A DNA stretch of 64,000 bases from Saccostrea cucullata (taxonomy: Eukaryota): the NCBI RefSeq assembly GCF_032062105.1, contig NW_026940097.1, positions 1 through 64,000 on the forward strand. The letters run 5' to 3'. The position numbers are program-made. Below, piece after piece: positions 12,001-15,000 of this stretch; position 1 is the first letter of the stretch, and every line of letters starts with the position of its first letter.

Positions 12001-15000
12001 TTTTTCGTGTATGTCAACATCACAACTTAAATTTATCCGCCATGTTTACTGAGCGGATTTCTTTGGAATTACCTTTTTTATGTCTAAATATCACTGTTTA
12101 CGAAAAAATATCACATGAAATGATTCTATTTATCAATGTTTAGTGATACTATTCATCACAATTATTTATAAACACCGACAAGTGCTTTATTGAGCTATTC
12201 TAAATTTTAAGCGTAAGCCTCTATATGTCATGCGTGAACTGCCATGGCTGCTAAGTAGACCGACAGGTAAACAAGCAGATTTATTTTACATGGTTTTAGT
12301 GTGTAACGGGCTATGTTATCGACAGTGAATAAAAATTTGTGTTATTAAAAGTAAGTTGATTGTAAAAACAATTTATTCTGCCTGCAGTCGCCTGCTTTTA
12401 AAATATAATTTTGCACCATTATGCAGATGCTGTGGATGTGTAGACTTCTCCAGAAAACATCAGATAACAAAGTCGGAGAGGGCTACATTTTTGGAGCTAA
12501 GCTTCTTGTAATATTTCGTTTAAAGTCCGTATATTAATAAAACTTATTTGTTTTGTAACAATTTCATATTACAATCTATCTATCAATTCATTCATCTATT
12601 CACAAATCAATCAATTATCAATCAATAAACCAGTTCATTTATCTATGCAACCCTCAATTAATCAATATATCTATCAACCATAAAAAAAATCAATCAATCT
12701 ATCAATCAAAAAATGAATTCATGTTTTCTGTGATTTTAGCCCATTGTCCGCCAGGATACACTGTTTACAAGTACTTGTTCTTTGAGATCTGCTTGAAGTT
12801 TGTACCATCCTCATCTAACCATTCAGAAGCAGATACCAATTGTTCTAATGAGGGCGCAGAACTACCAAAACTTGATTCATGGGAGAAGTACAACATTTTT
12901 AGAAGTCATATGCGTATGTACAATATAGGATTTGAATTTTTATATAAGGAGGAGATAAGTAAATGAAGAATAATGAGCCATGATTTCGACAAATATACGA
13001 ATTTGTTAATCTTAATTGTAATCTTCAGAAAATTATGTTCTTATAAGTTTGCTGTTCTACGAATGGCAAACTACACTGAGTATTCTTTTGCGTTATCAAA
13101 ATGTTGGAAAAGGTCTTAAATATAACATTCCATTTTTAGGACAACAAAGACTCAACTACCATTATACTGTATGGCTTCAAGGAGAGGAGATTGATGGCGT
13201 ATGGAGATTTCGTGATGGAACTTTTTTCGACAATAACTGTAAAACCATCAGACAGACGAATTATCCGGAGGAGACCCATTTGACGTCATCAAGTGAAACA
13301 GATTTCGGCTGCGATGACGAAGATCCTGCGAACAAACATCATCACGTTTGTGAAATTTATCGTACTTTTAAAGACTTTTAATGAAACTCCTCTGCTTTAG
13401 TCTAAGGAAATGAACGAAACACCATTATTTTCACGAGAAAACATTTTTTTGTAAAGCTTGTATGGTTTTCTTAGAAAATTATTCATGACCTGTATCAAAT
13501 ATATATTGTAGAGAACTTCTCATAAATGTGCATTTAATTACATTTTTTTTTTCAATCAAACTGAGCTGGTTATTTTTTTCTTGATATGATGCATTTTCCT
13601 TAAAGAATTAACTCAGTTTCCATGATCATTTGAACTCTTTTATCTAAATAAACGTGCATATGTCCTTTATTTAAAAGTATCTGTTCATTTATCTATTTAT
13701 TATTTAAAGTACATATACATCGGGCATTGAAAATAGTTGAATGAAGTCTAGATTTTTATGACCTTCTCAAAGTCTACTCTTGCAGTTTGGAACAATAATT
13801 TTTGTTCATGTTAAATCTTATAGTGTTCCTTTTACATACAACAGTTTGCATCAATCTCTGATGAACACTATAAAAGGTACTTTAGCATCCTTCATCTTCT
13901 CTTCATTGTTAGATACATGGTTAGCGACTGTAGGTATATAAAAAGATATTATAAGAATTAAGAATTTATTTGATTGATTGGTGTTTTACGTTCCATACGT
14001 GATTTTTTTTTACTCAAATAGAAACATCATTGAAAAATTTATAACATTTACTTGGAGTTCATGACCACTGAGCAGTGATGAAAGATGATCTTCATCGTAA
14101 TGAAGTCGAGACACGATTTCTTGAATTTTAAGGGTATCATCCGAAACATTCAAAACTTTCAAAGTGCCGAGGTCTTGGCGAAGGAAAAATTGCTTCATAT
14201 GTTTTAAAATCAATTTAATTCAATCACGTTTGGGTTGTGGACCCACAACCTTCATATCACGGAGCGAGCTCATGACGTGAAGGAAACACGTATACATGTA
14301 CATGTTTATTGTAAAGAAATAGGATGAGAAAGAGCGACCTCGAGAATATATAAACATTACAATACTTCGAATAGGTACTTTAAATTCATGCACACTGTGT
14401 CGATCAGGCAGAAGGCGATATCTGCATTGATATTTAGCATGAACATAATTGCTTAATATATTGTATGAAACAGAGGAAGAAAATATACCATTCTGTCAAT
14501 TACTGTATACAGTGCCATTTTCGCCCCGTGTTATTTTCGCCCTTTCACACCTGCAAATATATTTGGCCCGTTTTAAATTCGCCTAATCAAAGTTCTGTAC
14601 AAGAAATTATACTGTGCTTTTAGAATTCACCCCGTTTTAAATTCGTCCTCCTGTGAACTTGCTGAAAGAGGCGAAAATTTTCTTGTATTAAGTAAATGGT
14701 TTGAAAGGTCTGGAATAGTTTCTGATAGATTGAGCTCAGTCATCCAATCAGATTTCTGTTTAGATTGGCAGACTGAGAGTATCATCCTGTTTAGTGTGTG
14801 AGTTAAAATACAAATCTATGGTATTCATACACGATAAAATGGTTAAAATAATGATTTTATATGATATCGTTAATATCTGTAAAGTTAACATAATTATTTT
14901 TGTTCTTACATTTTCTTGAGTTTTGGAATAAGTCCTCCTTCTGTGGAATATTGATTCAAATTAAATGAATCCTTACAAAGTAGCTTAAAATATTATTACA

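What the first reader, a model, noticed from the sequence alone, without database searches (positions are those of the whole stretch)
13140..13381. Lectin domains appear to have a rewired inner disulfide: Cys at two canonical Trp positions, canonical Cys pair lost
Established: the distal half of a canonical CTLD reads W-x3-EPN...E-x-C...WND-x2-C...FICE. Seen: all three paralogs keep the register but swap residues. A has C-KFFS-QTN..ETH..CND-ED-P, B has C-KTIR-QTN..ETH..CDD-ED-P, C has C-PLE-ESN..EVH..CLD-SW-P. The inner Cys pair has become His and Pro, while the Trp before EPN and the Trp of WND have become Cys. Ca2+-site positions are partly kept (Q/E, N, E, D) but the cis-Pro is lost. Inference: a new disulfide clamps the binding loop, defining a distinct CTLD subfamily with non-standard specificity.
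Basis: partly seen in the sequence, partly recalled or inferred. Interest (0 to 1): 0.75.

Follow-up and report, generated by a model that had tools for sequence, protein, structure and literature searches.

The report
Oyster lectin domains with moved disulfide
Three neighbouring oyster genes encode secreted C-type-lectin-like proteins that have lost one of the fold's two standard disulfide bridges and carry a conserved new cysteine pair beside it, a tidy but modest example of how this very plastic fold gets rewired.

Summary
The residues are there as described. 13140-13381 is the last exon of gene B of three tandem paralogs (A, B, C) in a Saccostrea cucullata contig. [quoted passage not shown] All three also carry two extra Cys. 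The pattern is not chance: 65 of 88 distinct relatives show it, and every named one is an oyster.

The second Cys sits at the Trp of WND. Spacing, a profile-profile alignment and Trp-keeping relatives all agree on this. The first Cys is more likely one residue after the Trp that precedes the EPN-like motif. That is the same place as the "WCP" Cys of fish type II antifreeze proteins, which have an extra disulfide clamping this loop.

That the two Cys bond to each other is inferred, not shown. The grounds are even Cys counts, invariance, joint losses and the antifreeze precedent. No model coordinates were available, so no distance was measured. Phylogenetically independent covariation is in the right direction but not significant (3 same, 0 opposite, 2 unchanged; p 0.25).

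Canonical Ca2+/sugar binding is unlikely for most of the family: none has the Pro, and two ligand positions are not conserved. The proteins are signal peptide, PAN/apple-like module, then CTLD. Verdict: new variant of a known kind, moderate interest.

The parts
13140..13381 (+). Gene B, last exon: distal half of the CTLD. Codons: C124 at 13238-13240, H137 at 13277-13279, C148 at 13310-13312, P153 at 13325-13327, C161 (C4) at 13349-13351; stop at 13379-13381.
   Evidence: 100% identical to residues 92-170 of P0001. This exon alone gives no Pfam hit.
12740..12913 (+). Gene B, middle exon: proximal half of the CTLD, with C0 and C0' (P0001 C35, C50) and C1 (C67).
   Evidence: AG acceptor and GT donor present. 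Alone it scores 15.7 bits on Lectin_C, below the 22.6 cut-off.
9563..9881 (+). Gene B, first coding exon: hydrophobic N-terminus (putative signal peptide) followed by a Cys-rich PAN/apple-like module. The NCBI model starts at the internal Met at 9785.
   Evidence: AF2 model has pLDDT 84.8. The best Foldseek PDB matches are PAN/apple modules at E 0.02-0.1, none at E<=0.001. No Pfam hit. The start at 9563 and the signal peptide are my reading, not a prediction tool's.
13..186 (+). Gene A, middle exon (proximal CTLD half). Its first exon lies off the window.
   Evidence: 96% identical to the same exon of B.
478..719 (+). Gene A, last exon (distal CTLD half) with C-KFFS-QTN..ETH..CND-ED-P.
   Evidence: 80% identical to the same exon of B.
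31692..31983 (+). Gene C, first coding exon: hydrophobic N-terminus followed by a PAN/apple-like module with 6 Cys.
36853..37026 (+). Gene C, middle exon (proximal CTLD half).
   Evidence: Splice sites read by eye.
37951..38192 (+). Gene C, last exon (distal CTLD half) with C-PLE-ESN..EVH..CLD-SW-P. A second in-frame acceptor at 37962/37963 is possible.
   Evidence: The first acceptor is preferred because the S. echinata relative P0078 aligns from 37935 onward.

Best explanation
A, B and C are tandem paralogs of an oyster-restricted family of secreted proteins. [quoted passage not shown]

The CTLD keeps the outer bridges: C0-C0' and C1-C4. It has lost the inner C2-C3 bridge, which normally joins strand beta3 to the loop after beta4. 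In its place are two near-invariant cysteines. One is at the start of the long loop region, most likely one residue after the Trp that precedes the EPN-like motif. The other is in strand beta4, exactly where the Trp of WND sits.

The most likely arrangement is that these two Cys form an intradomain disulfide tying the entry of the long loop to beta4. That would clamp the base of the loop which carries the Ca2+/sugar site in canonical CTLDs, and would take over the stabilising role of both the lost C2-C3 bridge and the lost core Trp. A large residue at the old C2 place (His, Arg or Tyr) may fill the space left behind.

Shown: CTLD membership, absence of C2/C3, conservation of the new pair, and the restriction to oysters. 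Inferred: the bond itself, its structural role, and secretion.

Ligand binding is probably not the canonical Ca2+-dependent sugar binding in most members.
For: CTLD membership.
- Database protein P0001 (gene B from an internal Met) scores 26.8 bits on Pfam Lectin_C against a 22.6 cut-off, over profile positions 3-106.
- Its AF2 model has mean pLDDT 87.3 and pTM 0.80.
- The listed top Foldseek PDB matches are all CTLD structures; 423 matches have E<=0.001. The best is 2zib, a type II antifreeze protein, at E 6e-7.

Loss of C2/C3 and gain of the new pair.
- hhalign pairs H137 with C2, P153 with C3 and C148 with the Trp of WND.
- Of 88 distinct distal halves, 65 have both new Cys and neither canonical one.
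- C148 to C4 is 13 residues in 63 of 65, as in the canonical P0049.
- Relatives without the pair have Trp or Phe in that column: P0031 'KWFD', P0047 'KWQD', P0092 F.

Pairing of the two Cys.
- Full-length members have 6 PAN-module Cys and 6 CTLD Cys. Seven sequences have exactly 12; five have 13, the extra one lying at position 9-22, in or next to the N-terminal hydrophobic stretch.
- No row has C148 without the first Cys: 0 of 88.
- Both Cys are lost together in at least four places on the tree.
- Independent-pair test: 3 changes the same way, 0 opposite.

Precedent.
- Herring type II antifreeze protein has an extra Cys89-Cys111 bond. Together with Cys69-Cys100 it lies 'at each end of the Ca2+-binding loop (Gln92-Asp114)' (PMC1891086, passages).
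- The family's distal-half profile finds type II antifreeze protein 2zib as its best PDB sequence hit (E 0.006), with Cys aligned to Cys on both sides.

Taxonomy.
- All 23 named proteins of the 59 are from Magallana/Crassostrea, Saccostrea or Ostrea. One search adds C. virginica.
Against: - No distance between the two Cys was measured. The structure tool gives no coordinates, and the model is least confident around the first Cys (mean pLDDT 69 for residues 121-130).
- Covariation corrected for phylogeny is not significant: 5 independent pairs, 3 same, 0 opposite, 2 unchanged, p 0.25.
- Four distinct sequences keep the first Cys without the second: P0087, P0089, P0093 and P0100. So the first Cys can exist unpaired or pair elsewhere. 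P0087 has another Cys four residues before C4. P0089 lacks one PAN-module Cys as well.
- Some full-length members have an odd extra Cys: P0083, P0076, P0011, P0082, and gene B's own first exon.
- If the first Cys is at Trp+1 and the second at the WND Trp, the pair is shifted by one residue on the beta4 side from the antifreeze bond. Its geometry therefore cannot simply be read off the antifreeze structure.
Confidence: 0.65

Rival explanations
1. Same bond as in fish type II antifreeze proteins. On this view the pair is the positional equivalent of the antifreeze Cys89-Cys111 bond (Cys after the first Trp, Cys before the WND Trp). The Trp residues would have been lost by small deletions rather than replaced by Cys. 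The reader's 'Trp became Cys' would then be an alignment artefact on both sides.
For: - HMMER aligns both family Cys to the two Cys of 2zib ('WCP' and 'KCWDD').
- hhalign puts the first Cys at Trp+1.
- The first Cys is preceded by F, V, I or Y in 54 of 65 and followed by Pro in 44 of 65, like 'WCP'.
- First Cys to the beta3 Glu is 10 residues in 62 of 65, the same as in the 2zib alignment.
- Type II antifreeze proteins are the best single-domain PDB hits of the family profile, and their alignments run through both Cys.
Against: - For the second Cys, HMMER needed a one-residue gap to align Cys with Cys.
- Without gaps, C148 is 13 residues before C4 and two before the near-invariant Asp (64 of 65), which is the WND Trp column.
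- Relatives lacking the pair have Trp in exactly that column.
- The Cys-Cys span is 23 in 56 of 65 members, against 22 in 2zib.
- Antifreeze proteins keep C2-C3 as well; this family does not.
Confidence: 0.15
2. The two Cys are not bonded to each other. They would be free thiols, or bond to the PAN/apple-like module or to another chain, or form a metal site together with His137.
For: - Four sequences keep the first Cys alone.
- P0089 lacks C148 and one PAN-module Cys together, which keeps an even count.
- Gene B has an extra Cys in exon 1.
- His is frequent at position 137: 46 of 65.
Against: - The PAN module's six Cys are nearly invariant as a set, as expected for three internal bridges.
- No sequence has C148 without the first Cys.
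- Position 137 is Arg or Tyr in 17 of 65, so it is not a conserved metal ligand.
- Established knowledge: free thiols and Cys-based metal sites are unusual in secreted domains.
Confidence: 0.12
3. Decaying or mis-modelled genes. On this view the loss of C2/C3 would mark pseudogenes or wrong exon calls, not a functional variant.
For: - The exon alone gives no Pfam hit.
- Only 6 of 59 relatives carry a precomputed Lectin_C domain.
- A versus B exon 3 shows 20 nonsynonymous and 2 synonymous differences.
Against: - All three copies have open frames with AG/GT splice sites.
- The same pattern is kept at 30-40% identity across at least three oyster genera.
- W102, D116, E135 and D150 are near-invariant.
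- The model is a confident CTLD fold.
Confidence: 0.03

Closest known systems
Canonical long-form C-type lectin-like domain (Pfam PF00059 Lectin_C; for example the asialoglycoprotein receptor, macrophage galactose lectin and Dectin-1 domains among the structural hits)
   Same: - The fold is the same, and P0001 clears the Pfam threshold.
- The N-terminal C0-C0' hairpin, the C1-C4 bridge and a WIGL-like 'VW[VLI]QG' motif are present.
- The 'W.F.DG' stretch, the Glu two residues before the C2 place and the Asp of WND are also kept.
   Different: - There is no C2-C3 bridge.
- The Trp of WND is replaced by Cys.
- There is no Pro in the EPN/QPD-like motif (0 of 65).
- Two of the five Ca2+-site-2 ligand positions are not conserved.
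- A new Cys sits at the start of the long loop.
Fish type II antifreeze proteins (herring 2py2, longsnout poacher 2zib, sea raven 2afp)
   Same: - They are CTLDs with an extra disulfide (Cys89-Cys111 in herring) at the base of the loop that holds the Ca2+ site (PMC1891086, passages).
- The 'WCP' motif of 2zib matches the family's hydrophobic-Cys-Pro motif.
- They are the best PDB match by fold (2zib) and by distal-half profile.
   Different: - Antifreeze proteins keep C2-C3 and have a further extra bond, five bridges in all.
- Their second extra Cys lies just before the WND Trp, which they keep. The oyster Cys replaces that Trp.
- The lineages are unrelated (fish versus oyster), and nothing suggests ice binding here.
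Molluscan PAN/apple plus CTLD proteins
   Same: The domain order is the same. The ESM Atlas lists mollusc clusters carrying PAN_1 and Lectin_C together among the nearest neighbours of P0001, one of 73 members and one of 326 (leads only).
   Different: - Whether those clusters have the canonical Cys pattern was not examined.
- The PAN-like module here is too divergent for Pfam.

Membership tests
C-type lectin-like domain (Pfam Lectin_C, PF00059) | Score above the Pfam gathering threshold | tested here: met
   P0001 scores 26.8 bits against a cut-off of 22.6, over profile positions 3-106 of 107. Single exons do not reach it: 15.7 and 15.0 bits for the middle exons of B and A, and no hit for C's middle exon or any of the three last exons. 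My own joined exon models were not searched.
C-type lectin-like domain (Pfam Lectin_C, PF00059) | CTLD fold | tested here: met
   The AF2 model has pLDDT 87.3. The listed top Foldseek PDB matches are all CTLD structures, with TM-score by target 0.55-0.73 for single-domain targets; 423 matches have E<=0.001.
C-type lectin-like domain (Pfam Lectin_C, PF00059) | Outer disulfide C1-C4 (helix alpha1 to strand beta5) | tested here: met
   The cysteines are present: C67 and C161 in P0001. C161 is kept in 63 of 65 family rows. The bond itself was not tested.
C-type lectin-like domain (Pfam Lectin_C, PF00059) | Inner disulfide C2-C3 (beta3 to the loop after beta4) | tested here: not met
   P0001 has H137 and P153 at those columns. 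There is no Cys within one column of either place in 65 of 65 family rows.
C-type lectin-like domain (Pfam Lectin_C, PF00059) | WIGL motif in beta2 | tested here: met
   The motif reads 'VWLQG' or 'VWVQG'. W102 is kept in 62 of 65 and Q104 in 63 of 65.
Ca2+-dependent carbohydrate-recognition domain (C-type lectin in the strict sense) | EPN or QPD motif with a cis-Pro | tested here: not met
   Position 130 is Ser (39) or Thr (13). Pro is not among the residues listed at positions 128-130 in the 65 family rows. Position 129 is Met or Leu in 35 of 65.
Ca2+-dependent carbohydrate-recognition domain (C-type lectin in the strict sense) | WND motif | tested here: not met
   The motif is C-x-D. The Asp is kept in 64 of 65, the Trp is replaced by Cys, and the middle position is variable. 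A has C-N-D, B has C-D-D and C has C-L-D.
Ca2+-dependent carbohydrate-recognition domain (C-type lectin in the strict sense) | Ca2+-dependent sugar binding | not testable with these tools
   This needs glycan arrays or calorimetry with and without Ca2+.
Type II antifreeze-type extra disulfide (herring Cys89-Cys111) | Cys immediately after the Trp that precedes the QPD-like motif | tested here: inconclusive
   hhalign and HMMER against 2zib both put the first Cys there, and the hydrophobic-Cys-Pro motif agrees. In A and B the preceding residue is Lys or Asn, and the 24-residue span equals the Trp-to-Trp span.
Type II antifreeze-type extra disulfide (herring Cys89-Cys111) | Cys immediately before a retained WND Trp, with C2-C3 also retained | tested here: not met
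   No Trp follows C148. C148 occupies the Trp column. C2 and C3 are absent.
PAN/apple domain | Pfam PAN family match | tested here: not met
   No Pfam family at E<=10 for the first-exon translations of B and C.
PAN/apple domain | PAN/apple fold with six conserved Cys | tested here: inconclusive
   The model has pLDDT 84.8. The best Foldseek matches are the HGF N domain, the plasminogen PAN domain, the Sarcocystis SML-2 lectin and apple domains, but only at E 0.02-0.1, with 0 matches at E<=0.001. Six Cys are invariant or nearly so. The Atlas neighbours carry PAN_1 or PAN_3 (leads only).

The most novel reading that the evidence does not exclude
An oyster-specific PAN-CTLD family has undergone a true disulfide migration. 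The inner C2-C3 bridge and the core Trp of WND were exchanged for a cystine that pins the entry of the long loop onto beta4. This would create a differently clamped recognition loop that tandem paralogs diversify on either side of the fixed Cys. Between A and B there are 10 nonsynonymous and 0 synonymous differences in the 21 codons around the first Cys. Relatives with neither bridge but with the Trp kept would be surviving intermediates of the exchange.
Probability: 0.3. Interest if true: 0.55.

Novelty: new variant of a known kind. Interest (0 to 1): 0.4.

Why it matters
The four cysteines C1-C4 and the WND Trp are treated as the most constant landmarks of the CTLD fold. A whole lineage-specific family that drops C2-C3 and the WND Trp, yet still models as a confident CTLD, shows that these landmarks can be exchanged.

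It also explains why most members escape Pfam annotation: only 6 of 59 relatives carry a precomputed Lectin_C domain, and most are labelled 'uncharacterized'. Surveys of bivalve C-type lectins that rely on Pfam hits and on EPN/WND motifs would therefore undercount this family.

If the new bond is confirmed, it would be a second, independent case, after fish type II antifreeze proteins, of clamping the base of the ligand loop. It would also be a natural test of how much the C2-C3 bridge matters for the fold. No biological function is known, so the wider impact is limited for now.

Tried and rejected
- Measuring the Cys-Cys distance.
- Single-exon Pfam and PDB searches of the distal half. Pfam finds nothing. 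The distal-half profile finds only 2zib among CTLDs; the other 11 of 12 hits at E<=1 are T-cell receptor and DNase I chains at E 0.014-0.56, which I take for chance.
- Phylogenetically independent covariation. The direction is right but p is 0.25, too few events.
- Order of events, that is whether sequences with no inner bridge are basal. The base of the family clade is an unresolved polytomy, and several such rows sit on long branches, so no order can be claimed. One canonical domain (P0062_433-574, branch length 4.1) falls inside the family clade; I take that as a long-branch artefact.
- Positive selection between A and B. Exon 3 has dN/dS of about 2.4 (20 nonsynonymous, 2 synonymous) against 0.24 for exon 2. 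My hand binomial estimate gives p of about 0.19, and intron divergence (about 10-12%) is similar to exon 3 dN. Suggestive only.
- Metal-site idea (Cys, Cys, His). Rejected because position 137 is Arg or Tyr in 17 of 65.
- Literature. Searches found no description of this Cys pattern. In two bivalve C-type lectin papers I saw only the passages that hold my search words (PMC12842671; PMC10140915), and none mentions it. Six accession and locus names of C. gigas relatives occur in no searchable main text.
- Rows dropped before counts. One search left out P0088 and P0059, which are truncated before the second Cys. One search counted only distinct sequences that cover columns 135, 150 and 161. One search left out the long-branch P0062_433-574.
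Full report
WHAT IS IN THE WINDOW

The window is AT-rich animal DNA, about 30-35% G+C, with one N run at 22195-22358, which I left alone. The last-exon translation of the finding is 100% identical to residues 92-170 of the NCBI protein 'uncharacterized protein LOC134254773 [Saccostrea cucullata]' (P0001, 170 aa). So the window is hooded-oyster genomic DNA.

tblastn of the exon translations and of 18 relatives against the window finds three copies of one gene, all on the + strand, and no more:
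- Gene A: exons 13-186 and 478-719. Its first exon lies off the window.
- Gene B: exons 9563-9881, 12740-12913 and 13140-13381.
- Gene C: exons 31692-31983, 36853-37026 and 37951-38192.

Splice sites are AG/GT and the exon phases agree.

Genes A and C were handled only as separate exons. The only full-length form of B that I used is the database record P0001.

CHECK OF THE OBSERVATION

The three quoted strings are correct. In P0001 numbering the cysteines of the lectin domain are:
- C35 and C50, the N-terminal hairpin pair of long-form domains;
- C67, which is C1;
- C124 and C148, the two new ones;
- C161, which is C4.

A global profile-profile alignment of 37 family domains against 11 canonical CTLDs from the same search gives probability 99.6% and E 2e-23. 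It pairs:
- E135 with the Glu two residues before C2;
- H137 with C2;
- C148 with the Trp of WND;
- D150 with the Asp of WND;
- P153 with C3;
- C161 with C4.

So the canonical inner pair is really gone and is not hidden by a register shift. The second new Cys sits on the WND Trp column. Three independent observations support this. C148 lies 13 residues before C4 in 63 of 65 family sequences, as in the canonical P0049. The Asp two residues after it is kept in 64 of 65. Close relatives that lack the pair have Trp or Phe exactly there: P0031 'KWFD', P0047 'KWQD', P0092 Phe.

- hhalign puts C124 one residue after that Trp.
- HMMER aligns it to the Cys of 'WCP' in the type II antifreeze protein 2zib.
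- In the family this Cys is preceded by F, V, I or Y in 54 of 65 and followed by Pro in 44 of 65.
- It lies 10 residues before the beta3 Glu in 62 of 65, as in the 2zib alignment.
- The Cys-Cys span is 23 in 56 of 65 members. Only the A/B type has 24, which equals the Trp-to-Trp span.

The loop has a variable length among CTLDs, so sequence alone cannot settle one residue. This also makes the match of QTN/ESN to EPN uncertain by one.

IS IT MORE THAN CHANCE?

A full HMMER search of 1.84 billion representatives with P0001 gave 71 proteins at E<=0.001. A profile search of the 5.8-billion set gave 59 at E<=1e-5.

In an alignment of 23 family members at about 30-40% identity, C124 and C148 are invariant. 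Position 137 is His, Arg or Tyr there, and position 153 is variable but never Cys.

Among 88 distinct distal halves:
- 65 have both new Cys and no Cys at the C2 or C3 places.
- 12 are canonical-type. Nine are plain, two have an extra Cys next to the Trp, and one is a misaligned canonical domain.
- 7 have neither pair.
- 4 have the first new Cys only (P0087, P0089, P0093, P0100).
- None has the second new Cys only.

A maximum-likelihood tree of 60 domains, built with the four trait columns removed, separates the 12 canonical outgroup domains from a 48-row family clade with 98/87 support. That clade holds 37 rows with both new Cys, 7 with neither pair, 3 with the first Cys only, and one canonical row on a long branch.

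WHAT THE PROTEINS ARE

P0001 passes Pfam Lectin_C, but only just: 26.8 bits against a cut-off of 22.6. Only 6 of the 59 relatives carry a precomputed Lectin_C domain.

The AF2 model of P0001 (52-sequence alignment) has mean pLDDT 87.3 and pTM 0.80. It has the expected two helices and strands at 137-141, 147-150 and 157-164. Confidence is lowest around the first Cys: the mean pLDDT is 69 for residues 121-130. The listed top Foldseek PDB matches are all CTLD structures, led by the Ca2+-independent type II antifreeze protein 2zib at E 6e-7.

The first coding exon is longer than in the NCBI model. The open frame runs upstream of the annotated Met (9785) to an ATG at 9563. It encodes a hydrophobic N-terminus and a Cys-rich module that gene C and the full-length relatives share. 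Pfam finds nothing in it. Its AF2 model has pLDDT 84.8. The best Foldseek matches are PAN/apple modules: the HGF N domain, the plasminogen PAN domain, the Sarcocystis SML-2 lectin and apple domains. These are only at E 0.02-0.1, with none at E<=0.001. The ESM Atlas lists mollusc clusters that carry PAN_1 and Lectin_C together among the neighbours of P0001 (leads only).

So the likely architecture is signal peptide, PAN/apple-like module, CTLD. The signal peptide is my reading of the sequence, not a predictor's.

All 23 named relatives are from oysters: Magallana/Crassostrea gigas, C. angulata, Saccostrea cucullata, S. echinata and Ostrea edulis. One search adds C. virginica. The one named non-oyster, from Solemya velum, lacks the pair. 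The other 36 of the 59 have no name, and I did not try to trace them.

DO THE TWO CYS FORM A DISULFIDE?

This is inferred, not shown.

In favour:
1. Parity. Full-length members have six Cys in the PAN-like module and six in the CTLD. Seven sequences have exactly 12 Cys. Five have 13, the extra one lying at position 9-22, in or next to the N-terminal hydrophobic stretch. With C0-C0' and C1-C4 taken, C124 and C148 are left for each other.
2. Invariance, and no case of the second Cys without the first.
3. Both are lost together in P0092 (nested among family members that have the pair), P0023/P0123, P0047 and P0031.
4. A solved precedent. The paper on herring type II antifreeze protein (PMC1891086, passages read) reports five bridges. 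[quoted passage not shown] The two chain segments that carry the oyster Cys can therefore be bridged in a CTLD.

Against, or missing:
2. The independent-pairs test on the tree gives 3 changes the same way, 0 opposite and 2 unchanged, p 0.25.
3. Four sequences keep the first Cys alone. P0087 has another Cys four residues before C4. P0089 has also lost one PAN-module Cys.
4. Some members, and gene B's own exon 1, have an odd extra Cys.
5. If the first Cys is at Trp+1 and the second on the Trp column, the pair is offset by one residue on the beta4 side from the antifreeze bond. The antifreeze structure then shows feasibility, not geometry.

I put the intradomain bond at about 0.65.

THE BINDING SITE

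No family member has Pro in the EPN-like motif; position 130 is Ser or Thr in 52 of 65. The one matched to the Asn of WND is variable. N131 (46 of 65), E135 (59 of 65) and D150 (64 of 65) are kept.

A (Q, N, E, N, D) and B (Q, N, E, D, D) are unusual in having oxygen-bearing side chains at all five positions. C has Leu at one of them.

Established knowledge, as restated in PMC7618208 (passages): the cis-Pro stabilises the Ca2+-bound loop, and WND couples the site to the hydrophobic core. Canonical Ca2+-dependent sugar binding is therefore unlikely for the family at large and open for A and B.

Between A and B, exon 3 has 20 nonsynonymous and 2 synonymous differences, and exon 2 has 2 and 2. 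Ten nonsynonymous and no synonymous differences fall in the 21 codons around the first Cys, while the Cys itself is kept. The numbers are too small for significance, and intron divergence is similar to exon 3 dN.

COMPARISON WITH WHAT IS KNOWN

The domain is a CTLD by score and by fold. It fails the features that define a Ca2+-dependent carbohydrate-recognition domain (EPN/QPD with Pro, WND), and it lacks one of the 'at least two highly conserved' bridges of the fold (PMC7618208).

The closest known device is the extra loop-base disulfide of fish type II antifreeze proteins. The oyster family differs in four ways. It has lost C2-C3. It has only this one extra bond. Its second Cys is on the Trp column. 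It arose in an unrelated lineage.

I found no description of this pattern in print. Searches did not turn one up. In two bivalve C-type lectin papers I saw only the passages that hold my search words (PMC12842671; PMC10140915), and none mentions it. Six names of C. gigas relatives occur in no searchable main text. Supplements were closed and may hold lists that name these genes.

VERDICT

It is probably off by one residue for the first Cys, and it overstates the novelty of clamping this loop.

The finding is a new variant of a known kind. It is of moderate interest as a case of disulfide rewiring in a much-studied fold, and as a reason why this oyster family is missed by standard annotation. 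The bond itself and any function remain to be shown.

Noticed in passing
window 9563-9881: The NCBI model of gene B (P0001, LOC134254773) starts at an internal Met at 9785. The same open frame runs up to an ATG at 9563. It adds a hydrophobic N-terminus and the first half of the PAN/apple-like module that gene C and the full-length relatives have, so the database model looks 5'-truncated.
   Followed up: partly
window 9563-9881: The first exon of gene B has seven Cys after the hydrophobic N-terminus, where gene C and the relatives have six. That gives the mature protein an odd Cys count, which could mean a free thiol or an interchain bridge.
   Followed up: no
window 22471-23802 (+): An uninterrupted 443-codon open frame starts just after the N run (22195-22358), between genes B and C. 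It matches Pfam 7tm_1 (rhodopsin-family GPCR) at E 8e-21.
   Followed up: partly
window 54458-55681 (-): A 407-codon open frame has DUF3504 and QRICH1 domains, each at E 1e-14. It lies in the most GC-rich part of the window.
   Followed up: partly
window 38151-38246: A 48-bp unit repeated twice duplicates the last codons and the stop of gene C just downstream of the gene.
   Followed up: no
window 28699-29400: A tandem repeat of a 166-bp unit, 4.2 copies with 90% matches, lies between the GPCR frame and gene C.
   Followed up: no
window 478-719 versus 13140-13381: Paralogs A and B differ by 20 nonsynonymous and 2 synonymous changes in the last exon, against 2 and 2 in the middle exon. Ten nonsynonymous and no synonymous changes fall in the 21 codons around the first new Cys. 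The intron between these two exons is about 88-90% identical. The contrast is not statistically significant.
   Followed up: partly
P0089 (Crassostrea angulata LOC128171220) and P0093: These relatives keep the first new Cys but have Tyr in place of the second. P0089 also lacks one Cys of the PAN-like module, so its total stays even. This hints at a possible inter-domain re-pairing.
   Followed up: no
window 12570-12710: A low-complexity tract of (TCAA/ATCA)-like repeats lies in the intron just upstream of gene B's middle exon. I saw it by eye.
   Followed up: no
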